Below, in pieces: positions 1-60,224 of a stretch of 64,000 nucleotides of DNA (the stretch's first letter is position 1; every line of letters starts with the position of its first letter). The position numbers and the translations under genes are program-made. Under the pieces are notes generated by a model. That model searched no databases. It saw only the letters and a list, made by a program, of their open reading frames with translations, and was not told the DNA's origin. Source of the DNA: Prorocentrum cordatum (Eukaryota); NCBI GenBank assembly GCA_963575745.1, contig CAUYUJ010000181.1:558001-622000 (forward strand). The letters are read 5' to 3'.

Positions 1-560
1 CATGGCCTCGTTGGGAGCTCCACCGTAGGACGTAGGACCAAATGGCAACGACCGCATGATGCCACGCCCACTCTGGCCCAAGCCTCACACGTTCCGTGGC
101 CCCGTTTGGAGCTTCAACAAAGCCAAATCTGGCAACATCCGCATGCTTCCGCGCCCATGCCGGCACGCTCCTCACACGCTTCGTAGACCCATAGAGAGCT
201 CCACCAAAAACTCATGTGGCACTGTCCGGATGCTGTCGCGCATATTCCGGCACACCACTTACACGTTTCGTGTGCCACCGAATTCCCTAGAGTCAACGTC
301 CTGCTAATTTCCAGCCGCCCCTCTCACGTTTCGTGGCCCCATTAGGAGCTCCGCCGAAGGCCCCAATGGCAATATCCGCATGCTGCCGCGCCAATTCCGG
401 CCCACCCCCTCACACGCCTGGTGGCCCCATTAGGAGTTCCATCGAATGCTCCTTGGCAAGGGCAGCATGCTTTCGCACAAAGTCTGGCATACTCCTCACA
501 AGTTCCGTGGCCTCATAAAGAGCTCCACCGAAGTCCCCAATTGCAGGGTCCGCATGGTGT
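1..560 (+). repeat. ~86-bp tandem satellite (family A), about 6 degenerate units
   Basis: CTCACACGYTTCGTGGCCCC...GAGCTCCACCGAAG recurs near 85, 171, 258, 322, 408 and 494. Confidence 0.85.
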
Positions 561-2222
561 TGCTCCACTTTCATTATCAATTTTGAGCTACTCGCATTTG
601 TTTGTGGTTGGATATGTCGCCAGATAACTGTTAATAGCTGGGTCAACCTCTCTGGTGATCAAGTCTGCTTGGTTGGTGGTCAGGGCTCCACGGCGAAACG
701 GCAGCGCCACCCAGGTACTCTTGGGACGCCTTGAAGTCCTACCATAATCCAGAAGCACCAGAAAGTCTTTATACTGGTCCTCCATATTCCAGCGATGCTA
801 ATGGGTACAGCCGATGATGGTGGCGGTGTTGATGGCCATAAGTATGGTGATAACTGTAATGAGGAATGTTGATGCGATGGTGGCGCTTATTGAATTGAGC
901 TGATGCTGCAGGTCATGATTGTGGTGTTGCCGAAGCTACTGTCAATGTTGGGGTGTATGTAATGACGGTGTTGATGATTCTTCTCAACATGACTCAAAAC
1001 GATGCGTCCAAACAACACTATGTGCCGGAAATCGCGAAACAGTCAGTCAGAACAGGAGGTCGTCCATCCAGCTCTTCCAACGTGAACGCTTCATGTCCGA
1101 AGTGACCTCGAGACGATGACCACATGCACAATGCGTCTCATCAGAAATGCCGGATTTACAATGTCAACATTCTGGACAGTTTGGCTTTACACGGATACTG
1201 CTGATACCTGTCCAGGATAAGATAATGAATATGGTAGGCAGAGCGGCGTCATGAAATTCATCACTATACAAAGTTGACAACGTTGCAACATTTTGCCAAG
1301 TAGACTTTGGGAAATCATGCAAGTCAGATCATGGAAGGGGGATAGGGGTATGGTTTATACCGCTGCATCACTACGAAATTGATTCACCCAAGAATTGAAA
1401 CGCCAAGTAAAATTTTACTTGATTTTTTGTAATTGCGCGGGTCATAGGGGGGTAGGCTGAGTGGACGGGTGCAGGGGCATTCCAATGTTCGACCCGTACG
1501 ACACTGCGATAATGATACACACGCCCAGCATGCGTAGCCAGTTCGGGGTCGGCTTTTGTTTTGCGTTGTCGGCCCTCGCCGCGCTCCCAGCTACAGGCCG
1601 CATGCATCGCCACCACTGGTGCGCGGGTCGTGGAGCAGGACAAGAACTGTGAAAAGCGACTCAAGGGTGGACGAATCCTACCCACCCGCAATGTCACGGA
1701 ATCTGCGCCGCAGGTTCTGAATTTCAAGTGGCGGGGCCCGCCCGCAGACAACGCGAAACGCGACCACGACGGACGCGGTCGCCCACCGTGCAATCAAGGG
1801 TGGTGCCGCCAGGAAATTTGGCCCACTAGCGCGGCTAAGGCGCCCCAAGCCATAAGACGTCAAGCCATCATCCTTTCCGCCATCCTTGGCTGCTGCCTCG
1901 GCCGTCCAAGGGCACCCTTGGCGGCACATTCATCCTTGCCGTTTGGGGTCGAAGCCCGTTGCACGGCGGCGTCGCAGGGATGGGGGAGGCAAGGGTACCC
2001 TTGGGGATCCCTCCGTATCCTTGCCCATGTTCTCGTTTGGGCGGGCGCATCCCCGCGCGTTTCTTGCCGCGTAATGGCGTTGCACGGCCCCTTGGGCATC
2101 CTTGCAGATTTTTGAGTTGTCGCCTTCTCCCCGATCTTGGGTCAGTTTTGACCCGGCAACGGTATATCTTCATGTTCCCCACGCCCCCTTCTTTGCCTCC
2201 CCCCTCCTTCCCCGCGGGAGCT

Positions 2223-2620
2223 TGTCACCCGCTGCTCTTCTGAGGCGCCCTTGGCCCATGATGGCATCTTGATTCAAAAATGTACCATTGGTTTTCCTCG
2301 AGCGGTTTCCGTGGTGACACGTGTCACCTGCTTTTCTTCTGAAGATTCCTTGGCTCATGTTGGCGCCGAGAATCAAACAATTACGTTTGGTTTTCTCCAA
2401 GCGGTTTCCGCGGTGACACGTATCGCCCGTTGCTTTTCTGAGGCTTCCTTGGATCATGGCGGCGTCCAGAATCAAAAATGTACCGTTGGTTTTCCTCTAG
2501 CGGTTTCCTCGGTGACACGTGTCACGAGTTGCCTTTCTGAGGCTTCCTTGGTTCATGTTGGCGCCCAGTCAAAAATTCACAATTGGTTTTCTCCATGGGG
2601 CTTCCGCCGTGGCACGTGCC
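2223..2620 (+). repeat. 99-bp tandem repeat, about 4 units
   Basis: Units start near 2223, 2322, 2421 and 2520. The junction forms the palindrome GGTGACACGTGTCACC (2313-2328). Confidence 0.9.
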
Positions 2621-2959
2621 ATCCAGACGGTCACATCCAGTTCGTCATTTGATGTCGTGGTTGCCTGTCATACCTTTTCTCCCGTGACACTTTTCCACGC
2701 TAGTCGGCGGCGTGCGGTTAGCAACTTTTCAGTAAGTAACCTTTGTCGATTTTCCTGTTCCCTGCTCCTCCCCTTCCGCCAACGAGCAGCTCACCAGAAG
2801 AGATCTTATAACAAATTGTGTGTGCATGCTTTCCACGCCACGCCACCCCAGCCCATGCCGTACTCAACGGGATCCTGCCCTCCATTTTCGCTGGAGGCAC
2901 TAGGTTCTATTACATCCAATTTTATTTAGACACTGCGCTGGCTTCGTTTTATGCATATT

Positions 2960-3545
2960 TAGAGCGTTGAAAACCTACTCTGCACTAACGTGCCTTACCG
3001 CGCCCTTTCCAACCCCTACTCCTACACATGCTGTGATCAAGGTCAAACGCATATCTGCAACTATCCTGCGCCGTACGATTCGTAGCATTAGCGTGGTCCG
3101 CAAACCTACCCCGCAGCTCATCCCACCTCACCCTGGCATATTCAAACGCCAGCCAGACGCTATCCACAAGTAACGGTGGTGCAAAGGGCGGCAAGACCGA
3201 GTTCGACGCGGGCGTCTCCTCAGGGTTCGACGCGTAGATTTCGTAACACACGCGGCCGCCATGGCGGCGTCCACGACGCAAATGTCACCGCGGTAGCACA
3301 GCGCAACTCAACGCCCAATCCGCATGCGCAGACCACGTGCACATTTCCTGCCAATCTATCCAATGCCCGCTCCCCCATCAGGCTTTGCTCTACACGGGCT
3401 CCTGCAACTAATCACAACTCTTGTGTACCAGTGCAATATACCTCCTTACCTTGTCCAATGCACAGCCAGCGCTGCTCTTCTTCGTTTGCCGCGACTGTTA
3501 AGGCGTCGTTGCTATTTTGATGTGGATCGCCATATGCTTTAATGT
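2960..3545 (+). pseudogene. possible highly decayed Copia-type RT/RNase H remnant
   Basis: Manual translation gives LAYSNAS...WRRPRRKCHRGSTAQLNAQSACAD...LYTGSCN, in the order expected for Copia RNase H motifs (YSDAS; W.S.K...ST..AEL.A; TDS). Contains stops. Weak similarity only. Confidence 0.25.
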
Positions 3546-3759
3546 ATTCATCCTACGCGAACTTTACGGCGCGCCTGCATCGCGCAATTTTAGCCCCCCC
3601 GCCGCTCCCCCTCCCGCCCCTACCGCCACCCATCATCCCACCCGACCCCACTCCATCGCGACCCCGCTCTGTTCGCGCCCTTCCCCCCCCCCCCCCCCCC
3701 CGCGTCCGCGCGCAGCGCCCGTGCACAGCAGCGCCCGCGCGTGGCATCCGTGCGCGAAT

Positions 3760-4810
3760 GTCCATGCGCCACGTCGGTGTGCCACGCGCACGCGCGACGC
3801 CTACGCACAAGTCCCGTGCGCCGCATCCGCGCCACAACGCTGCGCCCTTCCCATGGTTCATGGCCACTTATGGAATTGCGCCCAAGGCCCCAGTAGAGAC
3901 GCTTACATGCGTCCGCGCCGCGCATCATGCCGCACCCTCGCACGGACCGTGGCCCCATAGGGGGCTCCATCGGAGCCCCCTGTGGCGACGTGGACATGCG
4001 TCCGCGCCACCGATTACGGCGCGCCCCATCACGCGGTTCGCGGCCCCACATGGTGCTCCACTTAAGAGCACCCGTGGCGACGGTCGCACGCTCCTGGGCC
4101 ACCCATCGCGGCGCGCCCTCGCGCGGTTCGTGGCCCCAGAAGGATATCAACGAAAAGCTGCCCAACCATTGCGACGCTCTCCATCACGCGGCCCGTCGCC
4201 TCAGAAAGAGTTCCACCCAAGGCCCCAGTGGCGAAGTTCGCACGCGCGCGCGCAACCCATTGCGGCGCACCCCTCGCACGGTCCGTGGCTGCATCGGGGC
4301 TTTCACTTGAGGCGGCGTCGTACAAGCGTCCGTGCCGCCCATTGCGGTACGCCCCATCACGCGGCCCGTGGCCACATGAGGAGCTCCACATAAAGTCCAA
4401 ATGGCGACCTTTGCCCGCGCCATTCGCGGGCCCATATGGAGCTCCAAGCGACGTGTACTGCGTTTGGCCGCCGATGACGGCACGTGCACGTGCGGTTGCG
4501 CCGCCCATGGCGCTTGCGCCGCCCATGGCCCGCCCACCCACCCAGAGACCCCCGCCCAGCTCCACCCCCGCCACCACCAACCCACCACGACCACCGCCAC
4601 CCCCACGCACGCCCCCCCCCCCCCCACACACACCACCACCGCCACCACCAACCGTCAACCACCACCACACAAACACGACACACACACACACACGACCGGC
4701 ACCACAGACACACACACACACCACGCACCACACACATCACGGCGCATCTATCGCACGGTTCGTGGCCCCATAGGGAGCCCCACCGAACGCCCCAGTGACA
4801 CGCGCATTTG
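3760..4810 (+). repeat. ~86-bp satellite (family A variant) interrupted by (ACC)n/(CA)n microsatellite
   Basis: Repeated CACGGTTCGTGGCCCCATAGGGRGCTCC...GTGGCGACG units; microsatellite at ~4570-4735; one more unit follows it. Confidence 0.85.
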
Positions 4811-5510
4811 CGTGTCCACAATCGCGGTCCTCGCCATTGCACACGATTGAGCTCATGCCCAAGATACAGTCGGAGTCCATTAGTAGGTCGGGCCTGCCAA
4901 ATCAAGGGTACTCTCGTGTCCTGTGCATCGCGCTTCGTGTCCTCTGCATTCCCCGGGCAAGGGTGCCCTTGTGTCCTGTGCTTTCCGCGGGTGTCGGCGG
5001 CTTGGCCCGCGGCGTTCTGGGCGCGTCGCGCCTCGGGGAGGTCGCGGCCCTGGTCAAGGGTACCCTTGTGTCCTCTCAGATTTGGGGGTTCGGTTCGCTT
5101 CGATGTAAGATTGCGGTTTCAGCGCCGCGCCGCCGGCGCCGCGGCGAAGGGTATACTCTGCGATGTCCTCTGAGTGCGGCCGCACCGCCAGTGAACCAAC
5201 GACGCGTTCACTCGAGGTCGCCCCCGCGCAGCAGGGTACTCCTGTGTCCTGTACTTGCCCAGCCCTGCAAGTTCATTCATCGTCGCGTTCGGGCAGGTCG
5301 CGGGGCGCGCAAAGGATACCCTGCCGTCCTGTGCATTGGCTTCTCTTCGGCGGGCTCCTGGGAACAGCAGTGGAGGCGCGCTTTTGGCGGAGTCACGCGG
5401 GCGCTCAGCCTAAGTCTCATAGAGCGCTCTGTATTGTTCCGAATAGAGAAGACGCCGTGTTGGCTTGCAAGCTAGAGCGCGCGCGCGCGGACGCGCGCTG
5501 GCGCGCGCGC

Positions 5511-8500
5511 GAGGAGTTCTGCATGGTCCACAACAGAAAAGCTACCATGTAATTTCAAAAACTGAATTTGAAATTTCTGTGGCCCTTTAAGGAGGCCGAC
5601 GGACGCACCGACTTTCCATTGTGGACAATACAGAAGTCCCCACGCGCGCGCGCGTGAGGAGTTCTGTATTGTCCACAATACAAAGGCCGCCATGTAAGTC
5701 CAAAAAGCTGAATTTGAAATTTCTGTGGCCCTTTAAGGAGGCCGACGGAAATGTCGACTTTTCTATTGTGGACAATACAGAAGTCCCCACGCGCGCGCGT
5801 GCGCGCGTGAGGAGTTCTGTATTGTCCACAATAGAAAAGCCGCCATGTAATTCCAAAAACTGAATTTGATTTTTTTGTGGCCCTTTAAGGCGGCCGACGG
5901 AAATGTCGAATTTTCTATTGTGGACAATACAGAAGTCCCCACGCGCGCGGGCGCGCGTGAGGAGTTCTGTCTTCTGCACAATAGAGAAGCCGCCCTGTAA
6001 TTCCAAAAACTGAATTTGGAATTTCCGTGGCCTTTTAGGAGGCCGACGGAAATGCCGACTTTTCTATTGTGAACAATACAGAAGTCCCGACGCGCGCGCG
6101 TCCGCGCGCGCGCGCGTGAGGAGTTCTGTATTGTCCACAATAGAAAAGCCGCCATGTAATTCCAAAAACTGAATTTGAAATTTCTGTGGCCCTTTAAGCA
6201 GGCCGACGGAAATGTCGACTTTTCTATTGTGAACAGTACCGAAGTCCCCACGCGCGCGCGCGCGGACGCGCGCGCGTCCGCGCGCGCGCGCGTGAGGAGT
6301 TCTGTATTGTCCACAATAGGGAAGCCGCCATGTAATTCCAAAAGCTGATTTTGAAATTTCTGTGGCCAGTTAAGGAGGCCGACGGAAATGTCGATTGTTC
6401 TGTTGTGAACAATACAGAAGTCCGCACGCGCGCGCGCGCGTGAGGAGTTCTGTGTTGTCCACAACAGAAAGCCGCCATGTAATTCCAACAACTGAATTTG
6501 AAATTTCTGTGGCCCGTTAAGGAGGCCGACGGAAATGTCGACTTTTCTATTGTGGACAATACAGAAGTCCCCACGCGCGCGCGTGCGCGGACGCGCGCCA
6601 GTCCGCGCGCGCGCGCGCGAAGAGTTGTGTATTGTCCACAATAGAGAAGCCGCCATGTAATTCCAAAAACTGAATTTGAAATTTCTGTGGCCCTGAAGGT
6701 CGCCGACGGAAATGTCGACTTGACTATTGTGGACACTACAGAAGTCCCCGCGCGCGCGGGCGCGCGCGGACGCGCGCGCGTCGCGCGCGCGCGCGTGAGG
6801 AGTTCTGTATTGTCCACAATAGAAAAGCCACTTTGTAACTCCAAAAACTGAATTTGAAATTTCTGTGGCCCTTTAAGGAGGCCGACGGAAAAGCTCACTT
6901 TTCTATTGTGGACAATACAGAAATGCCCACACGCGCGCGTGAGGAGTGCTGTATTGTGCACAATAGAAAAACTACCACTTAATTCCAGAAGCTGAATTTG
7001 AAATTTCTGTGGCCCTCTAAGGAGGCCGACGGAAATGTCGACTCTTCTATTGTGAACAATACAGACGTCCCCACGCGCGCGCGCGCGTCAGCGCGCGCGT
7101 CAGCGCGCGCGCGTGAGGAGTTCTGTATTGTCCATAATAGAAAAGTTGCCACGTTATTCCAAAAACTGAATTTGAAATTTCTGTGGCCCTTTAAAGAGGC
7201 CGACGGAAATGTCTACTTTTCTGTTGTGGACAATACAAAAGTCCCCACGCGCGCGCGCGCGCGTCCGCGCGCGCGTCCGCGCGCGAGGAGTTCTGTATTG
7301 TCCACAATCAAAAAGCCGCCATGTAATTCCAAAAACTGAATTTAAAATGTCTGTGGCCATTTAAAGAGGTCAACGGAAATGTCGACTTTTGTGTTGTGAA
7401 CCATACAGAAGTCCCCGCGCGCGCGCGTCCGCGCGCGCGCGCGTGAGGAGTTCTGTATTGTCCACAATAGAAAAGCCGCCATGTAATTCCAACAACTGAA
7501 TGTGAAATTTCTGTGGCCCGTTAAGGAGGCCGGCGGAAATGTCGACTTTTCTATTGTGAATAATACAGAAGACCCCACGCGCGCCCGCGCGTTCGCGTCC
7601 GCGCGCGCGTCCGCGCGCGCGCGCGTGAGGAGTTCTGTATTGTCCACAATAGAAAAGCCGCAATGTCATTCCAACAACTGAATTTGAAATTTCTGTTGCC
7701 CTTTAAGGAGGCCGACGAAATCTCGACTTTTCGATTGTGAACCATGCAGAAGTCCCCGCGCGCGCGCGTGAGGAGTTCTGTATTGTCCACAATAGAGAAG
7801 CCGCCATGTAATTCCAAAAACTGAATTTGAAATTTCTGTGGCCCTTTAAGGGGGCCGACGAAAATATAGACTTTTCCATTGTGGACAATACAGAAGGCCC
7901 CACGCGCGCGCGCGTGAGGAGTTCTGTATTTTCCACAATAGAAAAGCCGCCATGTAATCCAAGAGCTGAGTTTGAAATTTCTGTGGCCCTTGAAGGAGGC
8001 CGACGGAAATGTCGACTTTTCTAGTGTGGACACTACAGAAGTCCCCACGCGCGCGCGCGCGCGTGAGGAGCTCTGTATTCTCCACAATAGAAAAGCTTAT
8101 GTAATTCCACAAACTGAATTTGAAATTTCTGTGGCCCGTTAAGGAGGCCGACGGAAATGTCTACTTTTTTTTATTGTGGACAATATAGAAGTCCCCACGC
8201 GCGCGCGCGCGAGAAGTTCTGTATTGTCCACAATAGAAAAGCCGCCATGTAATTCCAAAAACTGAATTTGAAATTTTTGTGGCCCTTTGAGGAGGCCGAC
8301 GGAAATGTCGACTTGTCTATTGTGGACAATACAGAAGTCCCCCGCGCGCGGGCGCGCGCGGACGCGCGCGCGTCCGCGCGCGCGCGCGTGAGGAGTTCTG
8401 TACTGTCCACAATAGAAAAGTCACTTTGTAATTCCAAAAACTGGATTTGAAATTTCTGTGGCCCTTTATTTAAGGAGGCCGATGGAAATGCCGACTTGTC

Positions 8501-9500
8501 TATTGTGGACAATACAGAAGTCCCCACGCGCGCGCGCGCGGACGCGCGCGCCGCGCGTCCGCGCGCGCGCGTGAGGAGTTCTGTTTTGTGCACAATAGAG
8601 AAGCCGCAATTTAATTCCAAAGACCGAATTTGAAATTTCTGTTGCCCCTTAAGGAGGCAGACGAAGACGTCCACTTCTCTATTGTGAACAATACAGAAGT
8701 CCCCACGCGCGCGCGCGTCAGCGCGCGCGCGCGCGTGAGGAGTTCTGTATTGTCCACAATGGAAAAGCCGCCAGGTAATTCCAAAAACTGAGTTTGAAAT
8801 TGCTGTGGGCCCTTTAAGGAGGCCGACGGAAATGCCGACTTTTTTATTGTGGACAATACAGAAGTCCCCGCGCGCGCGCGCGCGTCTGCGCGCGCGCGCG
8901 TGAGGAGGTCTGTATTGTCCCAAATACAAAGAACCTTCATGTAATTCCAAAAACTGAAATTGAAATTGAAGGAGGCCGACGGAAATGTCGACTTTTTCTA
9001 TTGTGAACCATACATAAGTCCCCGCGCGCGCGGACGCGCGCGCGTCCGTTCGCGCGCGCGCGCGTGAGGAGTTCTGTATTGTCCACAATAGAAAAGCCGC
9101 CATGTAATTCCAAAAACTGAATTTGAAATTTCTGTGGGCCTTTCAAGAGGCCGACGGAAATGTCTACTTTTCTATCGTGAATAATACAGAAGTCCCCACG
9201 CGCGCGCGCGTGAGTTCTGTATTGTCCACAATAGAAAAGCTGCCATGTAATTCCAAAAACTGAATTTGAAATTTCTGTGGCCCTTTAAGGAGGCCGACGG
9301 AAGTGTCGACTTGTCTATTGTGAACAATACAAAGTCCCCACGCGCGCGCGCGCGTGCGCGCGCGTGAGGAGTTCTGTATTGTCCACAATAGAGAAGCCGC
9401 CATGTAATTCCAAAAACTGAATTTGAAATTTCTGTGGGCCTTTAAAGAGGCCGACGGAAATGTCGACTTTTCTATCGTGAACAATACAGAAGTCCCCACG
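5511..9500. repeat. array of ~25 hairpin units (~132-bp constant unit + variable (CG)n linker)
   Basis: Unit = GAGGAG-TTCTGTATTGTCCACAATAGAAAAG-70 bp-CTTTTCTATTGTGGACAATACAGAA-GTCCCC, with 25-bp inverted arms. Linkers are ~12-50 bp of alternating CG. Confidence 0.95.
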
Positions 9501-9945
9501 CGCGTCCTCTCGTTTGCGCCGTCCGCGTCCGCGCCCATGTTCTCTGGTCTTCTGCCATGGCGACAGGTCGCTCTCCCGCGGAAGGGTGGTCTGCGCGTCC
9601 TCTCGTTTGCGCCGTCCGCGTCCGCGCCCATGTTCTCTGGTCTCCTGCCATGGAGACAGGTCGCTCTCCCGCGGAAGGGTGGTCTGCGCGTCCCCTCGTT
9701 TGCGCCGTCCGCGTCCGCGCCCATGTTCTCTGGTCTTCTGCCATGGCGACAGGTCGCTCTCCCGCGGGAGGGTGGTCTGCGCGTCCTCTCGTTTGCGCCG
9801 TCCGCGTCCGCGCCCATGTTCTCTGGTCTTCTGCCATGGCGACAGGTCGCTCTCCCGCGAGAGGGTGGTCTGCGCGTCCTCTCGTTTGCGCCGTCCGCGT
9901 CCGCGCCCATGTTCTCTGGTCTTCTGCCATGGCGACAGGTCGCGT
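9500..9945 (+). repeat. 93-bp tandem repeat, about 4.8 units
   Basis: GCGCGTCCTCTCGTTTGCGCCGTCC... recurs every 93 bp, which explains the 31-aa periodic ORFs here. Confidence 0.95.
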
Positions 9946-11269: not shown

Positions 11270-12310
11270 CGACGGCGCACGACGGCGTACGACGGTGTAC
11301 GACGGCGTACGACGGAACGAATTCAAGCAAAATTTTGCTTAAATTTGCTTGAATTTTGCTTGAATTTTGCTTGAATTTTACTTGGGGAAGCATTTTTCTG
11401 AAAAAATGCTTTCCGATAGTAGAATTTTGAAAATTTGCTTGAATTTTACTTTGCAAGCAAAATTTTGCTTGAATTTTGCTTGGCAAGCAAAATGTTGCTT
11501 GAATTTTGCTTGGCAAGCAAAATTTTGCTTGAATTTTGCTTGGCAAGCAAAATTTTGCTTGAATTTTGCTTGGCGCGGCCCACTAAGCAAACTTCGAAGC
11601 AAATTTTGCTTGGTCGGCTGCGCCAAGCATCGATGGCGGTCGTGGTCTTATGTGGCCACTACCGCCATCGATGCGAACAGATAGCTAGTGGAAGGGGCGT
11701 AGCAACAACAAATGCTTGGATATTACTTGGGCAGCGCAAAGCAAATTTTAAGCAAATTTCTAGCAAAATTTTGCTACGCGAAGCAAAATTTAAGCAAATT
11801 TCTAGCAATTTTTGCTACGCGAAGCAAAATTTAAGCAAATTTCTAGCAAAATTCTGTTTCGCGCCTTCCACATCTTACCCGCTCACATCGACTGCGGTCG
11901 TGGTCCTATATGACCACTACCGCCATCACTGCGCACGGAAAACGTAGTGGAAGGGGCGTCGCAACACTTTGCGTTTTACTTTGGGGAGGGGGGAAGTGTG
12001 GCAGCGCCAAGCAAATTTTAAGCAAAATTCTAGCAAAATTTTGCTACGCGAAGCAAAATTTAAGCAAATTTCTAGCAAAATGTTGCTTCGCCCCTTCCAC
12101 ATCTTACTCGTTCACAGCGATGGCGGTCGCATCTTAGTTACGCGGGGGGACGGGGGTGGCAGCGCCAAGCAACATTTAAACAAATGTCTAGCAACATGTT
12201 GCTACGCGAAGCAAAATTTAAGCAAATGTCTAGCACAATTTTGCTACGCGAAGCAAAATTTAAGCAAATGTCTAGCAAAATTCTGCTACGCCAAGCAAAC
12301 AAGCAAGTTG
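11270..12310. repeat. AT-rich palindromic motif cluster (CAAGCAAAATTTTGCTTG and relatives), preceded by (CGACGGCGTA)n
   Basis: Perfect 18-bp palindromes at 11454-11471, 11514-11531 and 11544-11561 on a 30-bp period. A hairpin module at ~11630 recurs at ~11890. Confidence 0.9.
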
Positions 12311-12349
12311 TCTAGTAAGCTGTTGCTACGAATTGCGATTCGAACGCGC

Positions 12350-12647
12350 CCAATATTTCGCAAAGCACCCCCTCCTTTTGTTTTGTTCGCAAAGGTCAAC
12401 CCCCTTCCCCCGTCCTCCCGATTTCTGCAAAAGTCCTCACCCCACCTCCCCATGCCGATTTGTGCAAGGTCCCCCCTGCCCCCGCCCCCGTCCTTCTGAT
12501 TTTTGCAAAAGCCCCCCGCCCCCCTTTCCCCCCGTCCTTCCGATTTTTGCAAAGCCCCTCCTCCCCCGTCCTTCCGATTTCTGCAAAGCCCCCCCCCTTA
12601 TTCCGATTTGTGACTCCCGATCTTTGCAAAGTCCCCCCCCCCCCGTG
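12350..12647 (+). repeat. CCGATTTTTGCAAAGCCCCCC ~40-bp repeat, left part
   Basis: The motif is repeated about 7 times and resumes at 17635, after the inserted 5-kb element. Confidence 0.8.
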
Positions 12648-13291
12648 CCGTCGGAGTCCATTAGTAGGTCGGGCCTGCCAAATCAAGGGTACTCTCGTGT
12701 CCTGTGCATCGCGCTTCGTGTCCTCTGCATTCCCCGGGCAAGGGAACCCTTGTGTCCTGTGCTTTCCGCGGGTGTCGGCGGCTTGGCCCGCGGCGTTCTG
12801 GGCGCGTCGCGCCTCGGGGAGGTCGCGGCCCTGGTCACGGGTGCCCTTGTGTCCTGGCAGATCTGGGGGTTCGGTTCGCTTCGATGCAAGATTGTGGTTT
12901 TAGCGCCGCGCCGCCGGCGCCGCGGCGAAGGGCATTCTCTGCGATGTCCTCTGATTGCGGCCGCGCCGCCAGTGAACCAACGACGCGTTCTCTCGAGGTC
13001 GCCCCTGCGCAGCAGGGTACTCCTGTGTCCGGTACTTGCCCAGCCCTGCAAGTTCGTTCATCGTCGCGTTCGGGCAGGTCGCGGGGCGCGCAAAGGGCAC
13101 CCTGCCGTCCTGCGCATTGGCTTCACTTCGGCGGGCTCCTGGGACCAGCAGTGGAGGCGCGCTTTTGGCGGAGTCACGCGGGCGCTCAGCCTGAGCCTCA
13201 TAGAGCGCTCTGTATTGTTCCGAATAGAAAAGACGCCGTGTTGGCTTGCAAACTAGAGCGCGCGCGAGCGGACGCGCGCTGGCGCGCGCGC

Positions 13292-16200
13292 GAGGAGTTC
13301 TGTATGGTCCACAACAGAAAAGCTGCCATGTAATTCCAAAAACTGAATTTGAAATTTCTGTGGCCCATTAAGAAGGCCGACGGACGCGCCGACTTTTCCA
13401 TTGTGGACAATACAGAAGTCCCCACGCGCGCGGGCGCGTGCGGACGCGCGCGCGTCCGCGCGCGCGCGCGTGAGGAGTTCTGTATTGTCCACAATAGAAA
13501 AGCCGCCATGTAATTCCAAAAACTGAGTTTGAAATTTCTGTGGCCCTTTAAGGAGGCCGACGGAAATGTCGACTTGTCTATTGTGGACAATACAGAGGTC
13601 CCCACGCGCGCGCGCGCGTGAGGAGTTCTGTATTGTCAACAATAGAAAAGCCGCCATGTAATTCCAAAAACTGAATTTGAAATTTCTGTGGCCCTTCTAA
13701 TGAGGCCGACGGAAATGTCGACTGTTCCATTGTGGACAATACAGCAATCCCCACGCGCGCGCGCGTGAGGAGTTCTGTATTGTCGGCAATAGAAAAGCCG
13801 CCATGTAATTCCAAAAACTGAATTTGAAATTTCTGTGGCCCTTTAAGGATGCCGACGGAAATGCCGACTTTTCTATTGTGAACAATACATGCGTCCCCAC
13901 GCGCGCGCGCGCGGACGCGCGCGCGTCCGCGCGCGCGCGCATGAGGAGTTCTGTATTGTCCGCAATAGAAAAGCCGCCATGTCATTTCCAAAACTGAATT
14001 TGAAATTTCTTTGGGCTTTTAAGGAGGCCGACGGGAATGTCGACTTCTCAATTGTGAACAATACCGAAGTCCCCAAGCGCAAGCGCGCGCGAGGAGTTCT
14101 GTATTGTCCCATGGAAAAGCCGCCATGCAATTCCAAACACTGAATTTGAAACTTGTGTGGCCCTGTAAGGAGGCCGACGGACATGTCGACTTTTCTTTTG
14201 TGAGCAATATAGAAAGTCCGCACGCGCGCGCGCGCGTGAGAAGCTCTGTATTGTCCACAATAGAAAAGCAGCCATGTAATTCCAAAAACTGAATTTGAAA
14301 TTTCTGTTGCCCGTTAAGGAGGCCGACGGAAATGTCGACTTCTTTATTGTGGGCACTACAGAAGTCCCCACGCGCGCGCGTGCGCGGACGCGCGCGCGGA
14401 CGCGCGCGCGCGTGAGGAGTTCTGTATTGTCCAACAGAAAAGCCGCCATGCAATTCCAAACACTGAATGTGAAATTTTTGTGGCCCTCTAAGGAGGCCGA
14501 CGGAAATGTCGACTTTTCTATTGTGGACAATGCAGAAGTCCCCGCGCGCGCGGGCGCGGGCGGACGCGCGCGCGTCCGCGCGCGCGAGCGTGAGGAGTTC
14601 TTCTGTATTGTCCACAATAGAAAAGCAAACTTGTAATTCCAAAAACTGTATTTGAAATTTCCGTGGCCCTTTAAGGAGGCCAACGGAAATGTCGACTTTT
14701 CTATTGTGGACAGTACAGAAGTCCCCACGCGCGCGCGCGCGTGAGGAGTTCTGTATTGTGCACAATAGAAAAGCCGCCACTTAATTCCAAAAACTGAATG
14801 TGAAATTTCTGTGGCCATTTCAAGATGCCGACGAAAATTTCGACTTCTCTATTCTGAACAATACAGAAGTCCCCACGCGCGCGCGCGCGTCAGCGCGCGC
14901 GTCAGCGCGCGCGCGCGCGTGAGGAGTTCTGTATTGTCCACAATAGAAAAGCCGCCATGTAATTCCAAAAATTGAATTTGAGAATTTTCTGTGGGCCTTT
15001 AAGGAGGCCGACGGAAATGTCGACTTTTCTATTGTGAATAATACAGAAGTCAGCGGGTGCGCGCGAGGAGCTCTGTATTGTCCACAGTAGGAAAGCCGCC
15101 ATGTATTTCCAAAAACTGAATTTGAACGTTCTGTGGCCCTTTAAGGAGGTCGTCGGAAATGTCGACTTTTCTTTTGTGAACCATACAGAAGTCCCCGCGA
15201 ACGCGCGCGTGAGGACTTCTGTATTGCCCACAATAGAGAAGCCGCCATGTAATTCCAAAAACTGAATTTGAAATGTAGATTGTTCGATTGTAAACAATAC
15301 AGAACTCCCCATGCGCGCGCGCGCGTGAGGAGTTCTGTATTGTCCACAATAGAAAAGCAGCCATGTAATTCCAAAAACTGAATTTGAAATTTCTGTGGCC
15401 CTTTAGGGCGGCCGACGGAAATGTCGATTTTTCTATTGCGGACAATACAGAAGTCCCCACGCGCGCGCGCGGACGCGCGCGCGTCCATGGCGCACGCGCG
15501 CGCGTGGAGTTCTGTATTGCCCACAATAAAAAAGCAAGCTTTTGTAGTCCCAAAAACTGAATTTGAAATTTCTGTGGCCCGTTAAGGAGGCCGACGGAAA
15601 CAAGGACTTTTCTATTCTGGACAATACAGAAGTCCCCACGCGCGCGCGCGCGCGGACGCGCGCGCGTCCCGCGCGCGCGCGTGTGAGGAGTTCTGTATTG
15701 CTAACAATAGAAAAGCCGCCATGTAATTCGAAAAACTGAATTTGAAGTTTCTGTTGCCCTTTGAGAAGGCCGACGGAAATGTCGACTTTTCTATTGTGGA
15801 CAATACAGAAGTCCCCGCGCGCGCGGGCGCGTGAGGAGTTCTGTATTGCCCACAACAGAGAAACCATTTTGTAATTGTAAAAACTGAATTTGAAATTTCT
15901 GTGGGCTTGTAAGGAGGCCGACGGAAATGTCGACATTTCTATTGTGGACAATACAGAAGTCCCCACGCGCGCGCGCGCGGACGCGCGCGCGTCCGCGCGC
16001 GCGCGTGAGGAATTCTGTATTGTGCACAATAGAGAAGCCGCCATTTTATTCCAAAAACTGAATTTGAAATTTCTGTGGCGCCTTAAGGAGGCAGACGACA
16101 ATCTCGACTTTTCTATTGTCAACCATACAGAATTCCCCCGTCAGCGCGCGCGCGTCAGCGCGCGCGCGCGTGAGGAGTTCTGTATTGTCCACAATAGAAA

Positions 16201-16930
16201 AGCCGCCATGTAATTCCAAAAACTGAATTTGAAATTTCTGTGGCCCTTTAGGGCGGCCGACGGAAATGTCGATTTTTCTATTGTGGACAATACAGAAAGT
16301 CTGCACGCGCCTGCGCGCGCGGACGCGCGCGCGTCCGCGCGCGCGTGCGAGCGCGCGCGCGCGTGAGGAGTTCTGTATTGTCCACAATAAAGAAGCCGCC
16401 ATGTAACTGCAAAAAGGAAATTTGAAATTTCTGTGGGCCTTTAAGGAGGCCGACGGAAATGCCGATTTTTCTACTGCGAACATTACAGAAGTCCCCGCAC
16501 GCGCGCGCGCGTGAGGAGTTCTGTATTGTCCACAATAGAGAAGCCGCCATGTAATTCCAGAAACTGAATTTGAAATTTCTGTGGGCCATTAAGGAGGCCG
16601 ACGGAAATGTCAACTTTTCTATTGTGAACAATACAGAAGTCCCCACGCGCGCGCGTGAGGAGTTCGGTATTGTCCACAATAGAAAAGCCGCCGTGTAATT
16701 CGAAAAACTGAGATTGAAATTTCTGTTGCCCTTTAAAGAGGCCGACGGACATGTCGACTTTGCTATTGCGAACAATACAGAAGTCCCCGCGCGCGCGTGA
16801 GGAGTTCTGTATTGCCCACAATAAAGAAGCCGCCATGTAATTGCAAAAACTGAATTTGAAATTTCTGTGGGCTTGTAAGGAGGCCGACGGAAATGTCGAC
16901 TTTTCTATTGTGAACAATACAGAAGTCCCC
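13292..16930. repeat. array of ~23 hairpin units with (CG)n linkers
   Basis: Same unit as 5511-9500; the unit at ~15211 has an internal deletion. Confidence 0.95.
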
Positions 16931-16931
16931 A

Positions 16932-17378
16932 CGCGCGTCCTCTCGTTTGTTCCGTCCGCGTCCGCGCCAATGTTCTCTGGTCTTCTGCCATGGCGACAGG
17001 TCGCTCTCCCGCGGAATGGTGGTCTGCGCGTCCTCTCGTTTGCGCCGTCCGCGTCCGCGCCCATGTTCTCTGGTCTCCTGCCATGGAGGCAGGTCGCTCT
17101 CCCGCGGGAGGGTGGTCTGCGCGTCCTCTCGTTTGCGCCGTCCGCGTCCGCGCCCATGTTCTCTGGTCTTCTGCCATGGCGAGAGGTCGCTCTCCCGCGG
17201 GAGGGTGGTCTGCGCGTCCTCTCGTTTGCGCCGTCCGCGTCCGCGCCCATGTTCTCTGGTCTTCTGCCATTGCGACAGGTCGCTCTCCCGCGGGAGGGTG
17301 GTCTGCGCGTCCTCTCGTTTGCGCCGTCCGCGTCCGCGCCCATGTTCTCTGGTCTTCTGCCATGGAGACAGGTCGCGT
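16932..17378 (+). repeat. 93-bp tandem repeat, about 4.8 units
   Basis: Same as 9500-9945. Confidence 0.95.
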
Positions 17379-17634
17379 GACCGCCCCCAGAGGGAGGTGG
17401 GCGCGCGCGGCGCATCGTGATTTACTTTTCTGCGCGGTGGGCGGCGCGGCCTGTCGGACACCCTTGGTGTCCTGTCCGACGTTGGCCCCCCGTCGCGGGG
17501 GCGCGGGTCGGCCGCGGGTGACCGCGGTCGCGGCCCCGAGAGGGTACCCTTGTGTCCTGTGGTTCTGGGAGGTCATGTTGCCGTCGGAAGAGTCCTGCGT
17601 CCTGTCGCGTGTCCTGTGCAATGGGCTCTGCCTG

Positions 17635-17960
17635 TAGTCCGATTTGCGCAAAGTCCCCGCTCGCCCCCGTCCTGTAGATTTTTGCGAAATCCCCGCCGTC
17701 TCCAATATGTGCAAAATCCCCCCCATCGCCCCCCCCTCGCCGTCCTTCTTATTTTTGCACAAAGCCCCCCCCCGCCCGCCCCCCTTTCCCCCCCCCCTTT
17801 CCCGTCCTTCCAGTTTTTGCAGAGCCCCCCCCTTTCCCACCCCCGTCCTTCAGATTTTGCCCCCCCCCCCCGGCTTTTTCGATTTAACGACGCCCCCCTC
17901 CCCCCCCCGCCCCTTCGCGATCGTTATCCCCCCCTCCCTCCCCCCCCCCCTCCGCCGATT
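17635..17960 (+). repeat. CCGATTTTTGCAAAGCCCCCC repeat, right part
   Basis: Continuation of the 12350-12647 motif. Confidence 0.75.
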
Positions 17961-18889
17961 GCGGAGCGGGCCTTTCCGTATTATATTTCGGTGCGAACCT
18001 TGGCGGCACATCAGGCGTGTGCGCCTTGGCACCCGGTGCCCCCCCCCCCTCCCAGGCGGGCGAGCGGGCGGCTGCGGCGGGCAAGCGGTTGCGCATGTTG
18101 CGCCGGGGTGATTGGTCGAGGGCGCGGGGCCTTTCGGGGCGGTGACGCCGTCCGATGGCCGACCCCGAGCATGCCCGACGTGGAAGTGCAGAGGCGGGCA
18201 GCGAGCGATTGCAAGGCGCGCCGCGGATACGGGCGGGCGCCGTGGGCGAGCGGCAGGGGGCGATAAGGGGGATGGTTGGGCTTGGCTTGTGGCCGACAGG
18301 GCCTGATGGCGCGCGGGCTTGGCAGCGCGCGGGAAAGCGGCGGTGGACTGCCGGGGGGAAGCGGGGCAGCGGCGGGCGGGGCGTTGCGAACGGGAAGGGG
18401 GGAGGGGGGGGCACATGCGGGAGGGGGAAGGAGGCGGGGGGGGTTCTAGTTTGGTTTTGCCCTGCCAATGCAATCCATATTCCGATCGGACGCTCCTCCC
18501 GCTCTACTTTCGCCATTCTTCGCCGACGGGCTCTGATTGCAATTGCCATGCTGGAAGACATCGTTGACGCGCCGCGGCGCAGCATCCTACAGCGTTGCCC
18601 CGTTGCCTGGGAAGCGTCGGGTTGCTTGTCGGCCCACAAGGCCTACGTCGCGATCGCGCGAGCCCAGGGCCGCAGTGCGTCTGCCCAACCCCGTCCCTTG
18701 TTCCAACAGGTTTGTGCACTTCTGCTATGCCCTCTGCTTTCCTGCTTTCCTAACACCGCTGTGACCCCCACTGCATCAGTTCCCAAAGCAATTCTGCGTT
18801 GGGGCCCTCGGTCTGAAGCGACGGCGCCCCGCGTCACCTTACTTCCCGCCCTCCCCCTCCCCCCAATCATCCCGCCCCTGTCCTGCGCT

Positions 18890-20235
18890 CCGTGCGTCAA
18901 TGTCGGCGCGCCTCTCCACGCGCTTCGTGACCGCGTAGGGAATTTCATGCGAGTTCCCAGTGGCGACGTCTGCATGCGTCCGCGCCGCCCATTACGGCGC
19001 ACCCATCGCGCGCTTCATGGCCCCGTACGGATCCCCACGTAAAGCCCCCGCGGCGACGTTGACATACGTCGGCGCCACCCATGGCGACGCGCCAATCACA
19101 CGTTCCGCAGCCCGATGGGGGGCTCCGCCAAATCCACCCAGTGGCGACGTCCACATGCGTCCGCGCCGCCCGTAACGGCGCACCCCTCAAACGTTTCGTG
19201 CCGTCATGGGGATCTCCACCCAAGACCGCAGTGGCGATGTTACATGCGCCAACGCTCCATAGGGTGCTCCACCGAAGGCCTCAGCGGCGGCGTTTACATA
19301 CGCCCGCGCAGCCCATGACAGCGCACCCGCGCGCCGTTCGTGGCCACGCAGCGAGCTCCCTGCACGGCACCACCGGCGATGTTTGCATGCGCTTGCGCCG
19401 CCCATGACGGCGCGCCTGTCGCAGTGTTCATGGCCCCAAAGCGAGCGCCGCCGAAGGCCCCAATGGCGACGCGCACATGCGCCCGCGCCATTCATTACGG
19501 CGCACACTTCGCACGGTCCGCGGCCCCATAGGGAGGTCCACGTAAGGCCCCAGTGCCGACGTATGCACGCGCCCGCGCCCCCAAGAAGGGCACACCGCTC
19601 ACGCGGTTCGTGGCCGCGTAGGGAGCTCCGCCTATAGCTCCACTGGCGACCTCTGCGTGCACCCGCGCCACGCATCACGGCGCACCGCTAACGCGTCCCG
19701 TGGCCCCACGGGGAGCCTCGCTTGAAGCCCCGACGGCGACGTTTACGCGCGCCCGCGTCGCCCGTTACGACGCGCCCCTCAGACGGCTCGTGGCCCATGA
19801 GGAGCCCCATCTAAGGCCCGAGTGACGACGTTAGCATGCCCCCCCCCCTCCCCGCCCCCTCCCCCCACACCCTCCCATTCACTCCGCCCGCCCACCCACC
19901 GCGACCACCAGCATCAACACACACACACACACACGCACGCACACACACGCGCACACACACACACACACATACCACCACCACCACCACCACCATCGCCACC
20001 ACCACCACCACCACCACCCACCACCACCAGCACCACACTTATACACACCACACACACCAACACACACACACACAGACACGCGCACGCACGCACACACACA
20101 CACCAACACACACAGACCACACACACACACACACACGCATTGTGGCGCACCCCGCGCGCGCTTCGTAGCCGCATGTGGAGCTGAAAGGGACGCGCCAGTG
20201 ACACTTGCCGATGCGTTGCCCCGTAGGAGGTTTCA
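18890..20235 (+). repeat. ~86-bp satellite (family A variant, about 11 units) + (CA)n/(ACC)n + final unit
   Basis: Same unit and layout as 3760-4810. Confidence 0.85.
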
Positions 20236-21529
20236 CCGAGGAGGGTGTTCACAAGTGCTGCGCTCCCAATTGCACATGGTATGGCTTTCCGTCACGATGA
20301 GTATATACCAGCTCTACGTCGTCCTACTACCACATGCCACACACTGGTTTCACATGACTCTGTCCTGTTCTGGAGTACTCGTCGGTGCTCATGTGGGTTT
20401 CGCGCTTCGTTGCTCAGGAGCCAGTCGTACTCGATTCACCTTCCGCATTACTGGAACAAACTTGCTCGACGCATACACTAACTCTCGTGTTTTCTCTGGT
20501 CTATTCCTACCCTATGGAGATTACGTCCAGTCTGCTGCTGTGTGACGAGTATCGGTACCCTGCTTTATTTCTATAATGTGCATACTCTAGCGGTGATGCG
20601 CTCGTTGTCTACTCCTCTCTTACTTAGGGAGGGGGAATAAGGAGGTGCCCGCGCCCATGTCATTGCTGTTTTGTTTTGTTTTTCGCAGCCAACGAAATGT
20701 TCAGGATTGTGGCCTCACACAAAGTTCAAAATCTCACGGACGAGCCTGAACCACATGCAGCCTCGATGGGCGACGTTGCCGCAGTTGCTTGCTGCGACAT
20801 GAGGCGGGCGTGGTTCCCACGCGCCACTCCAGCCATGCCGACCGTCGGCGCCGTCCTTCCCCTACTCTTCTAATGTCCCTCTGGCACACCATCATTCTCA
20901 ATCGTATCCTCCCTGGTTCGATCCCGCCTCACATGTCTTCGGATCTCTCACATCGCCCACCCCCATTCATCAGCATCATATTTTCCAGCCTTCCCCATCG
21001 TGAACAAAAAACACCAAGTCAAATTTTACTTGATTTTTCAATTCGTATGTAATTCAATTCTGTAGTCGTTGAGCTATATGAATGGTGAAAAGGGCTGAGG
21101 TGCCAGCGCTGAAAATGGCAATATCACCGAAAATATCTGCAAGTGTCCTACGTACGGATTTCAACCACGTTGGCCTTGCGACAATCGCGTCGAACAACGT
21201 GAGACCTGATTCCACATCTCCCGGCGGCCGCAATCATACTTGAGCAACGACGCAACTGCCAACCCCAAGTTATCCGATCCCCAAGCCCACGACCCCCAAA
21301 TATCGAATCGCAAGCAAACTGATTCCGGAAATCCTCCCGAATCGCGAAGAGAATGATTCCTGGAACTCCGAATCGCCGGAAACATGATTCTGGAAATTCT
21401 GAAGTGTTAACTTATTTTTGTTTCGCGTACAGACCAAAAGTCCGGAAATTCCGACACTACGTTCTGGAGATTCCGAAATAACATAAAGGAATTCCAGAAA
21501 TTAGGAGCACACATAAATGATTGTCGGTA

Positions 21530-21660
21530 GCGGTTGTCGCGAAACCAACGTGGTTGGCATCGAAATGTAAGGCACTTGCGGAAATACCCTATAACGTCGC
21601 CATTTCCAGCACTGGCACCACACCCCTTCACACCACACCCATGTCCTCCCTCCCCCTGGA
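21530..21660 (-). repeat. diverged inverted paralogue of the sequence flanking the 19.7-kb element (empty site)
   Basis: Reverse complement GGGAGGGAGGACATGGGTGTGGTGTGAAGGGGTGTGGTGCCAGTGCTGGAAATGG matches 1333-1354 joined to 21087-21120; similarity continues to ~21190. Confidence 0.75.
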
Positions 21661-60202: not shown

Positions 60203-60224
60203 CATGAGCCAAAATGGCTACGGA
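60203..60224 (-). other. relic dinoflagellate spliced leader (DinoSL)
   Basis: TCCGTAGCCATTTTGGCTCATG versus consensus DCCGTAGCCATTTTGGCTCAAG, 21/22. Confidence 0.95.

What the first reader, a model, noticed from the sequence alone, without database searches (positions are those of the whole stretch)
1350..21086. ~19.7-kb TIR-bounded insertion with a 5-bp TSD and an empty-site witness ~500 bp away
Seen: 67-bp ends align ungapped in inverted orientation (~73% by eye), and ATGGT lies exactly outside both. Removing the element gives GGAAGGGGGATAGGGGTATGGTGAAAAGGGCTGAGGTGCCAGCGCTG, which matches the reverse complement of ~21607-21655. No transposase, integrase or polymerase remnant is recognisable inside. 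Inference: an old giant non-autonomous element, or one that grew by accumulating nested insertions. The TT...GA termini do not fit Transib (CAC), Polinton (AG) or LTR (TG..CA) conventions; CACTAC occurs 14 bp inside the left end.
Basis: partly seen in the sequence, partly recalled or inferred. Interest (0 to 1): 0.75.

Follow-up and report, generated by a model that had tools for sequence, protein, structure and literature searches.

The report
Giant gene-less dinoflagellate DNA transposon
A 19.7-kb stretch of what looks like a dinoflagellate genome is a real cut-and-paste jumping element that has no gene of its own, is mostly made of tandem repeats, and belongs to a family that current classifications do not cover; it is a solid but fairly ordinary kind of find.

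Summary
The interval 1350-21086 is a 19,727-bp element (1355-21081) with ATGGT on both sides. Its ends are imperfect, AT-rich inverted repeats (56 of 80 bases). A nearby inverted paralogue (21521-21653) reads straight across the junction, and only when the element plus one ATGGT is removed (17/22 in that register, 6-10/22 in ten others). Contigs from three public runs end at 1354, one base outside the left end. Relatives of both arms occur in environmental assemblies.

The interior has no recognisable protein. About 59% is tandem repeat. Two roughly 5-kb copies of a satellite-bearing repeat (X, X') lie inside, and X' clearly interrupts an older array.

My reading is a non-autonomous cut-and-paste DNA transposon moved in trans, making 5-bp target duplications. 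It is partly built by nested insertion, and other copies are 97-100% identical, so "old" is not supported. The termini (TTATACC / TCATATA) fail the Transib heptamer test, so the superfamily stays open.

Earlier notes of this scan describe other giant TIR transposons and 5-bp-duplication MITEs in the same genome. None of the look-ups found this family elsewhere. I could not test the right end in reads, duplication length in other copies, or the transposase.

The parts
1350..1354 (.). Left copy of the 5-bp target-site duplication, ATGGT
   Evidence: Read directly. Identical to 21082-21086. The bases beyond it differ on both sides, so the repeat is exactly 5 bp.
1355..1434 (+). Left terminal inverted repeat. 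It is AT-rich (31% G+C) and starts TTATACC. It holds the boxes ACTAC (1370-1374), AATTGA (1377-1382), GAATTGAAA (1393-1401) and a perfect 18-bp palindrome CAAGTAAAATTTTACTTG (1404-1421).
   Evidence: 56/80 identical to the reverse complement of 21002-21081. Contigs of runs X1, X2 and X3 end at 1354.
1435..4868 (+). Left arm: unique sequence with a 99-bp x4 array (2223-2618) and a diverged ~90-bp repeat array followed by a CA/C-rich tract (3830-4800).
   Evidence: Covered by contigs of four runs with 0-3% differences. A reading frame at 1374-1793(-) has 6 variant relatives on 7 environmental contigs.
4869..10202 (+). X: 5,334-bp internal repeat. It comprises 570 bp unique, a ~4-kb satellite of 144-193-bp hairpin monomers, a 93-bp x4.8 array and a 260-bp tail. 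Its ends ACAGTCGGAGTCCATT / AATGGACTCTGCCTGT are inverted (14/16). No duplication was found at its ends.
   Evidence: The 4868/4869 join is bridged by contigs of X1, X2 and X3.
10203..12649 (+). Middle segment: G+C-rich unique DNA, then 30-bp and 41-42-bp arrays (11318-12299) built on the palindrome CAAGCAAAATTTTGCTTG, which resembles the one in the terminal repeats. A C-rich 55-60-bp 'TTTGCAAAG' array begins at about 12360.
   Evidence: (family D15).
12650..17635 (+). X': second, direct copy of X (4,986 bp). It is 95% identical to X in the unique head, 96-97% in the 93-bp array and 89% over the last 1.8 kb. It is nested in the C-rich array.
   Evidence: The same array continues on both sides of it.
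17636..21001 (+). Right arm: the rest of the C-rich array (to about 17870), unique DNA, a second ~90-bp repeat array plus CA-rich tract (18900-20204, direct to 3830-4800), then unique DNA.
   Evidence: The reading frame 20750-21049(+) has a 91% identical relative on an environmental contig.
21002..21081 (-). Right terminal inverted repeat (29% G+C). Read inward it starts TCATATA.
21082..21086 (.). Right copy of the 5-bp target-site duplication, ATGGT
1333..1354 (+). Left 22 bases of the interrupted target: one arm of an older 133-nt inverted repeat
21087..21197 (+). Right 111 bases of the interrupted target arm
   Evidence: (pair I7), 13, 69: 78/111 identical to the paralogue.
21521..21653 (-). 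Uninterrupted paralogue of the target (the other arm), with GTGGT where the target has ATGGT: the empty-site witness

Best explanation
The stretch 1355-21081 is one copy of a non-autonomous class II (cut-and-paste) DNA transposon in a dinoflagellate-type genome.

Proposed mechanism:
- A transposase encoded elsewhere in the genome (inferred, not seen) recognises the ~75-80-bp AT-rich terminal inverted repeats.
- Its likely binding sites are the conserved boxes (AATTGA twice, and the 18-bp palindrome 50 bases from each tip).
- It cuts the element out and joins it into a target cut with a 5-base stagger. Repair of the stagger produced the ATGGT on both sides.

History of this copy:
- It landed in one arm of an older 133-nt inverted repeat, whose other arm still shows the uninterrupted site.
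- The element carries no gene. About 59% of it is tandem repeat.
- At least one of its two 5-kb satellite-bearing blocks (X') got there by a later, duplication-less insertion into the element's own interior.
- The composite then seems to have been copied as a whole.

Shown: the ends, the duplication, the empty-site paralogue, the left boundary in outside data, relatives of both arms elsewhere, and the lack of coding signal.
Inferred: the enzyme, its binding sites, and mobility of the full 19.7 kb.
For: 1. Inverted ends: 72 nt at 73.6%, E 2.4e-9; 56/80 from the first base; score 34 against a maximum of 19 in 2949 random window pieces.
2. An exact 5-bp direct repeat lies immediately outside both ends.
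3. The paralogue 21521-21653 aligns ungapped over 133 nt (95 identical) across the junction. It does so only in the register that removes the element and one ATGGT: 17/22, against 6-10/22 in ten other registers and 10/22 for the filled site. Only 2 of 127,958 window positions reach that score, namely the paralogue itself and the left flank.
4. Outside data: in three runs from three studies, a contig ends at 1354 and runs inward. X1 covers 1354-1733 with 4 differences in 380. X3 covers 1354-1752 with 5 in 399. X2 covers 1354-1791 with 9 in 438, and 48 further letters of that record do not fit the window. Contigs of four runs cover 1354-4554 with 0-3% differences. In X3, a contig of the left flank (945-1165) is identical to the window.
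5. Several contigs share the same places in X1 (7 at 1724, 10 at 1754). All three runs that cover 1385 read T there, which improves the match to the right end.
6. Contigs of X1, X2 and X3 bridge the arm/X join at 4868/4869 with 0, 1 and 2 differences.
7. A frame in the left arm finds 6 distinct variants on 7 environmental contigs, 83-90% identical, all ending at the same stop inside the terminal repeat. A frame in the right arm finds one relative at 91% that also runs into the terminal repeat.
8. No coding signal:
   - None of the 26 interior frames of 220 aa or more reaches a Pfam cut-off.
   - None of the 69 interior frames of 80-217 aa does either.
   - All 33 interior frames of 150 aa or more have flat G+C over the three codon positions, with the largest GC3-GC2 gap at 0.13. 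The Pfam-matched part of the one gene-like frame elsewhere in the window shows 0.30/0.17/0.89.
Against: - Only one copy with both ends was seen, so the 5-bp duplication is n = 1 and the family-wide length is untested.
- The contigs end at 1354, not 1355. The last base of the duplication is therefore shared by whatever copies those contigs stand for. That fits a target preference, but it could also mean the boundary is one base off.
- Contig ends and contig depth are weak evidence by the tool's own warning, and the best holder may be the sample the window came from.
- The core of the terminal repeat was not found in the JGI metagenome contigs (0 matches).
- No transposase was identified anywhere, so mobility in trans is inference.
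- Five reading frames inside the 93-bp arrays were not scanned against Pfam. Intron-split or very divergent genes could escape Pfam.
Confidence: 0.85

Rival explanations
1. A much smaller element with these ends inserted here and then grew in place, through nested insertions of X and X' and array expansion. On this reading the 19.7-kb form never moved and is private to this locus.
For: X' splits a C-rich array that continues on both sides of it. X and X' together make 10.3 kb of the 19.7 kb. 59% of the element is tandem repeat, which can expand in place. In run X4 the head of X has far more contig depth than the arms, so X also exists outside this element.
Against: Contigs of three runs bridge the arm/X join (4868/4869) with 0-2 differences. 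The same contig sets differ from the window copy by 1-3% elsewhere in the arm. This suggests copies other than this one already carry X at the same place. X' and the right half could not be tested.
Confidence: 0.2
2. The element is autonomous or recently was. On this reading it encodes a transposase that is split by introns, or is too divergent for Pfam, somewhere in the 9.4 kb that is not X or X'.
For: Earlier notes of this scan (unchecked) report transposases in this genome that only fold comparison recognised. Dinoflagellate genes are intron-rich.
Against: None of the 95 frames reaches a Pfam cut-off. All 33 long frames have flat codon-position G+C and Arg/Ala/Pro/Gly-rich translations typical of non-coding G+C-rich DNA. 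No RNA run was listed, which says nothing either way.
Confidence: 0.07
3. It is not a transposon. The two ends are a chance or recombination-derived inverted repeat, and the ATGGT pair and the paralogue match are coincidence or the by-product of a local inverted duplication.
For: The region is full of repeats: 1647 inverted pairs in 24 kb. The 22 bases left of the junction are G-rich, and only one complete copy was seen.
Against: The ends score 34, against a maximum of 19 in 2949 controls. The register test singles out exactly the 5-bp excision model. No other window position matches the 22-mer. Contigs of three studies stop at the predicted left end.
Confidence: 0.04

Closest known systems
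Transib superfamily (Kapitonov and Jurka 2005, PMC1131882; passages read)
   Same: Cut-and-paste elements with terminal inverted repeats and 5-bp target-site duplications. In 2005 that paper called Transib the only eukaryotic DNA-transposon superfamily with 5-bp duplications. It also reports a preference for G+C-rich targets, and the target here is G-rich.
   Different: Transib ends have a conserved CACAATG heptamer, a 23-bp spacer and an A-rich nonamer within 38 bp. This element starts TTATACC / TCATATA and has no CAC at the tip (CACTAC lies 14 bases inside the left end only). It has ~80-bp ends, and no RAG1-like gene was found in it.
Introner-like elements with 5-nt duplications in Polarella glacialis, class 12 (Roy et al., bioRxiv 10.1101/2020.10.14.339549; passages read)
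   Same: Dinoflagellate, gene-less DNA elements (the paper reports inverted repeats for its Symbiodinium elements) with a 5-nt duplication. This shows that a 5-bp-stagger machinery works in this group.
   Different: Those are short intron-forming elements whose first base is C, with targets NAGGH/NNAGG. This one is 19.7 kb, starts with T, has the target ATGGT, and I did not tie it to a gene.
TCGG...CCGA MITE families with 5-bp duplications in this same genome
   Same: Same genome, gene-less, same duplication length.
   Different: The termini differ. By the Repbase rule for non-autonomous elements (same duplication length plus terminal alignment over positions 1-11 with at most 1 mismatch, PMC4455052, passage read), they would not be filed together. 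I did not see their sequences.
Satellite-carrying TIR or foldback-type elements such as Tetris of Drosophila virilis (recalled, not read here)
   Same: A non-autonomous element bounded by inverted repeats whose interior is largely tandem arrays, so transposition can seed satellites at new sites.
   Different: No sequence relation is claimed. The ends here are short compared with foldback elements, and the arrays belong partly to nested elements.

Membership tests
Class II, subclass 1 (cut-and-paste TIR) DNA transposons, non-autonomous | Terminal inverted repeats at both ends | tested here: met
   72 nt at 73.6%, E 2.4e-9; 56/80; score 34 against a control maximum of 19.
Class II, subclass 1 (cut-and-paste TIR) DNA transposons, non-autonomous | Target-site duplication of fixed length directly outside the ends | tested here: inconclusive
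   ATGGT on both sides of this copy, and the register test picks 5 bp. No second complete copy could be examined, so the fixed length across the family is untested.
Class II, subclass 1 (cut-and-paste TIR) DNA transposons, non-autonomous | Empty site: the same sequence without the element and with one copy of the duplicated bases | tested here: met
   Shown by a paralogue, not an allele: 95/133 ungapped across the junction. A search for an allelic empty site through a flank reading frame found nothing.
Class II, subclass 1 (cut-and-paste TIR) DNA transposons, non-autonomous | Several copies that share the ends but not the flanks | tested here: inconclusive
   Contigs of 3 runs end at 1354. There are 6 variants of a left-arm frame on 7 environmental contigs and 1 of a right-arm frame. 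The flanks of other copies were never seen. 0 matches in JGI metagenome contigs.
Class II, subclass 1 (cut-and-paste TIR) DNA transposons, non-autonomous | No transposase gene of its own | tested here: met
   None of the 95 interior frames reaches a Pfam cut-off. Codon-position G+C is flat in all 33 long frames. Pfam cannot exclude a very divergent or intron-split gene.
Transib | 5-bp target-site duplication | tested here: met
Transib | CACAATG-like heptamer at the very tip, and an A-rich nonamer after a 12- or 23-bp spacer (PMC1131882) | tested here: not met
   The tips read TTATACC and TCATATA. There is no CAC at positions 1-3 of either end.
Transib | RAG1-core-like transposase in autonomous members | not testable with these tools
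   There is no gene in this copy and no genome was held to look for a partner.
Polinton/Maverick | Protein-primed polymerase, integrase and capsid genes; 6-bp duplication (recalled) | tested here: not met
   No Pfam hit of any kind inside. The duplication is 5 bp.
LTR retrotransposon | Long direct terminal repeats with TG...CA ends (recalled) | tested here: not met
   The ends are inverted, not direct. The internal direct repeats X and X' are not terminal.

The most novel reading that the evidence does not exclude
The element is the non-autonomous face of an undescribed dinoflagellate transposon lineage. That lineage would make 5-bp duplications without Transib-type termini. Its enzyme, perhaps one of the RAG1-fold transposases that earlier notes report in this genome, would bind an 18-bp palindrome repeated in the ends and, in variant form, in internal arrays. 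It would be able to move about 20 kb of satellite-laden DNA, making it a vehicle that seeds satellite arrays around a very large genome.
Probability: 0.2. Interest if true: 0.55.

Novelty: new member of a known kind. Interest (0 to 1): 0.35.

Why it matters
Dinoflagellate genomes are huge and repeat-rich, and their DNA transposons are barely catalogued. This locus gives a well-bounded reference copy: exact ends, a 5-bp duplication and an internal witness of the empty site. The family cannot be placed in a superfamily by the usual termini-plus-duplication rule. It also shows a 20-kb gene-less unit, mostly satellite, apparently existing in several near-identical copies. That is one concrete route by which tandem arrays can be spread to new sites. 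The practical value is as a seed for genome-wide annotation and for finding the enzyme that makes 5-bp duplications in this group. By itself it does not change what is known about how transposons work.

Tried and rejected
- No whole genome is held for the window, so no genome-wide count of ends or duplications was possible.
- In one search the left flank 729-1274 has almost no cover in any run.
- No RNA holder was listed, so nothing can be said on expression.
- A scan of the JGI metagenome contigs with the 30-base core shared by both ends gave 0 matches. I did not use the second scan, because the left-end core is identical in the contigs of three runs and a second pattern from the same element would test the same thing.
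- A flank reading frame (21057-21233, minus strand) was sent to the protein collection in the hope of finding an empty-site or filled-site allele. No candidate was found.
- Rfam at gathering thresholds and ARAGORN found nothing in the window.
- The three earlier-findings look-ups for look-alike sequence of the left end or left arm (by sequence or by place) found no match in other windows.
- I looked for a duplication around X and X' and for a Helitron2-type asymmetric end with a terminal hairpin. I found neither, only a 14/16 inverted match at the tips, so X stays unclassified.
- I looked for similarity between the two arms beyond the terminal repeats. Only the direct ~90-bp arrays and low-complexity tracts match.
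- I considered two solo copies of a small element as the source of the two ends. I rejected this because each end occurs once in the window and the empty-site paralogue joins the two outer flanks.


Full report
**What is there.** ATGGT stands at 1350-1354 and again at 21082-21086. The first 80 bases read inward from each side agree at 56 of 80 positions without a gap. blastn gives 72 nt at 73.6% with E 2.4e-9 inside the 64-kb window. The local alignment score of the two ends is 34. The left end against 2949 random 200-nt pieces of the window gives mean 9.1, sd 1.9 and maximum 19.

The ends are AT-rich (31% and 29% G+C) in a window of 50-70% G+C. They share distinct boxes:
- T-ATA at the tip;
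- ACTAC at 16-20;
- AATTGA twice;
- an 18-bp palindrome at 50-67, perfect on the left (CAAGTAAAATTTTACTTG) and one base off on the right.

No other copy of the terminal repeat is in the window. The only further hits are to arrays at 11.3-12.3 kb built on a related palindrome, CAAGCAAAATTTTGCTTG.

**The empty-site witness.** The reverse complement of 21521-21653 aligns without gaps to 1333-1354 followed directly by 21087-21197, with 95 of 133 identical. The right 111 bases (78 identical) are an ordinary local inverted repeat, which repeat finder also reports (pair I7). The test is in the 22 bases left of the junction.
- They match 17/22 only when the left flank is taken to end at 1354, that is, when the element and one ATGGT are removed.
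- Ending the flank at any of the ten neighbouring positions gives 6-10/22. The filled site gives 10/22.
- Of 127,958 positions on both strands of the window, only two reach 17/22 against the paralogue's 22-mer: the paralogue itself and the left flank.

So the G-richness of the stretch does not explain the match. The element sits in one arm of an older 133-nt inverted repeat, and the other arm preserves the uninterrupted site (GTGGT there, ATGGT here).

**Outside data.** No genome is held. One search for public runs listed 17 runs, 12 of which hold part of 600-3600.

In three of the four runs a contig ends at 1354 and runs inward:

| Run | Span | Differences |
|---|---|---|
| X1 | 1354-1733 | 4 in 380 |
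| X3 | 1354-1752 | 5 in 399 |
| X2 | 1354-1791 | 9 in 438, with 48 more letters of the record that do not fit the window (the table does not show on which side) |

X4 starts at 1499.

- Contigs of the four runs cover 1354-4554 with 0-3% differences.
- The one flank contig listed (X3, 945-1165) is identical to the window.
- In X1 up to 10 contigs share one place (1754).
- All three runs that cover 1385 read T there, which brings the left end closer to the right one.

I read this as follows. The sequence inside 1355 exists in several slightly different copies, and the assemblies break where those copies stop being alike. The tool warns that contig depth is no copy number and that the best holder may be the source sample. 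I therefore count this as a hint from three studies, not a proof. The break is at 1354 rather than 1355, so the base before the element is shared. A target preference (A...T, as in ATGGT) would explain this, but I could not test it.

**Relatives of both arms.** A reading frame in the left arm (1374-1793, minus strand) finds one cluster in the protein collection. The cluster has 6 distinct sequences on 7 environmental contigs, 83-90% identical, all stopping at the same stop codon inside the terminal repeat. One has a 14-residue gap over the palindrome. Their Lys where the window has Glu is the same 1385 difference seen in the contigs. A frame in the right arm (20750-21049) finds one relative at 91%, which also runs into the terminal repeat. 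These frames are not genes in my view; they served only as handles on the DNA. A 30-base core common to both ends has no match in the JGI metagenome contigs.

**The interior.** About 59% is tandem repeat. The layout is:
- **Left arm (1435-4868):** a 99-bp array, then a diverged ~90-bp array followed by a CA-rich tract.
- **X (4869-10202).**
- **Middle segment (10203-12649):** the palindrome arrays, then a C-rich 'TTTGCAAAG' array.
- **X' (12650-17635).**
- **Right arm (17636-21001):** begins with the same C-rich array and holds a second ~90-bp array plus CA-rich tract, direct to the first.

X and X' are direct copies. They are 95% identical in the unique head, 96-97% in a 93-bp x4.8 array, and 89% over the last 1.8 kb. 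Each carries about 4 kb of a satellite whose 144-193-bp monomers fold as hairpins (one monomer: -37.6 kcal/mol, z -6.8), separated by (CG)n. Their tips are inverted (14/16). I found no duplication around either.

X' clearly interrupts the C-rich array, which continues on both sides. At least 5 kb was therefore gained by insertion into the element. Contigs of X1, X2 and X3 bridge the arm/X join at 4868/4869 with 0, 1 and 2 differences. This suggests that the copies those contigs stand for already carry X in the same place. I could not test X' or the right half.

**No gene.**
- None of the 26 interior frames of 220 aa or more reaches a Pfam cut-off. Two weak sub-threshold hits are 18.5 bits against a cut-off of 26.9, and 18.2 against 19.9.
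- None of 69 further frames of 80-217 aa does either; three weak hits have E 0.0096-0.049.
- One search listed 94 frames and I sent 69. Twenty of the dropped frames were already covered. Five that lie wholly in the 93-bp arrays were never scanned.
- All 33 interior frames of 150 aa or more have flat G+C over the codon positions and Arg/Ala/Pro/Gly-rich translations.

**Organism.** This fits the dinoflagellate origin that earlier notes of this scan give for the genome (unchecked).

**Interpretation.** The best reading is a non-autonomous cut-and-paste DNA transposon, moved in trans by an enzyme that makes a 5-base staggered cut. I put this at about 0.85.
- 'Giant and gene-less' holds.
- 'Grew by nested insertion' holds for X' and probably X.
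- 'Old' does not hold. The outside contigs are 97-100% identical to this copy. The imperfect match of the two ends is how the family's ends are built, since the left end is the same in three runs.

**Comparison with known families.** A 5-bp duplication is the hallmark of Transib (PMC1131882, passages read), but the defining CACAATG heptamer is absent from both tips, so I do not file it there. Dinoflagellates do have gene-less elements with 5-nt duplications:
- class 12 introner-like elements of Polarella glacialis (10.1101/2020.10.14.339549, passages read), which begin with C;
- TCGG...CCGA MITEs noted earlier in this genome (unchecked).

Neither shares these termini. By the Repbase rule for non-autonomous elements (same duplication length and positions 1-11 alignable with at most one mismatch; PMC4455052, passage read), the superfamily is open. 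Carrying satellites inside a TIR element has precedents (Tetris in Drosophila virilis, recalled). The find is a new, well-documented member of a known kind. Its main use is as a seed for finding the other copies and the enzyme.

Noticed in passing
window 60203-60223 (minus strand): A relic of the dinoflagellate spliced leader with one mismatch (CCGTAGCCATTTTGGCTCATG). None is expected by chance (0 of 100 shuffles). It suggests a retro-copied mRNA nearby and supports a dinoflagellate origin.
   Followed up: partly
window 5491-9504 and 13282-16937: The satellite inside X and X' has monomers of 144-193 bp. Each is a ~36-nt-armed hairpin (one monomer folds at -37.6 kcal/mol, z -6.8), and they are separated by (CG)n runs of varying length that set the period. 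It looks like a tandem array of MITE-like palindromic units.
   Followed up: partly
window 85-557, 3830-4800, 18900-20204, 25880-26380: A diverged ~90-bp repeat occurs both inside and outside the element. Around 4733-4914 it draws by far the highest summed contig depth of the laid stretch in all four runs, so it is a very common genomic repeat.
   Followed up: no
window 1333-1354 + 21087-21197 and 21521-21653: The target of the insertion is itself an inverted repeat with 133-nt arms (71% alike) and a 323-nt spacer. It is possibly an old foldback or MITE-like element. I saw no duplication at its outer edges.
   Followed up: partly
window 11318-12299: Arrays of 30-bp and 41-42-bp units are built on CAAGCAAAATTTTGCTTG. 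This is the terminal repeats' palindrome with a compensated T/A to C/G change in both half-sites. They could be amplified binding sites or remains of a related element.
   Followed up: partly
window 40750-41112 (minus strand): This is the only frame in the window that reaches a Pfam cut-off: CitMHS citrate-transporter family, E 7.8e-9, 35.5 bits against a cut-off of 31.9. Its codon-position G+C is strongly skewed (0.30/0.17/0.89). It is probably an exon of a membrane-transporter gene.
   Followed up: no
protein P0007 (environmental contig), aligned to window 1374-1793: One environmental variant of the left arm lacks 14 residues (42 bases) that cover the palindrome of the terminal repeat. This is a copy with a deleted presumed binding site.
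   Followed up: no
window 1354: Contigs of three runs end one base outside the element, so the T before the left end is shared by the copies they represent. Together with the A after the right end, this hints at an A...T target preference.
   Followed up: no
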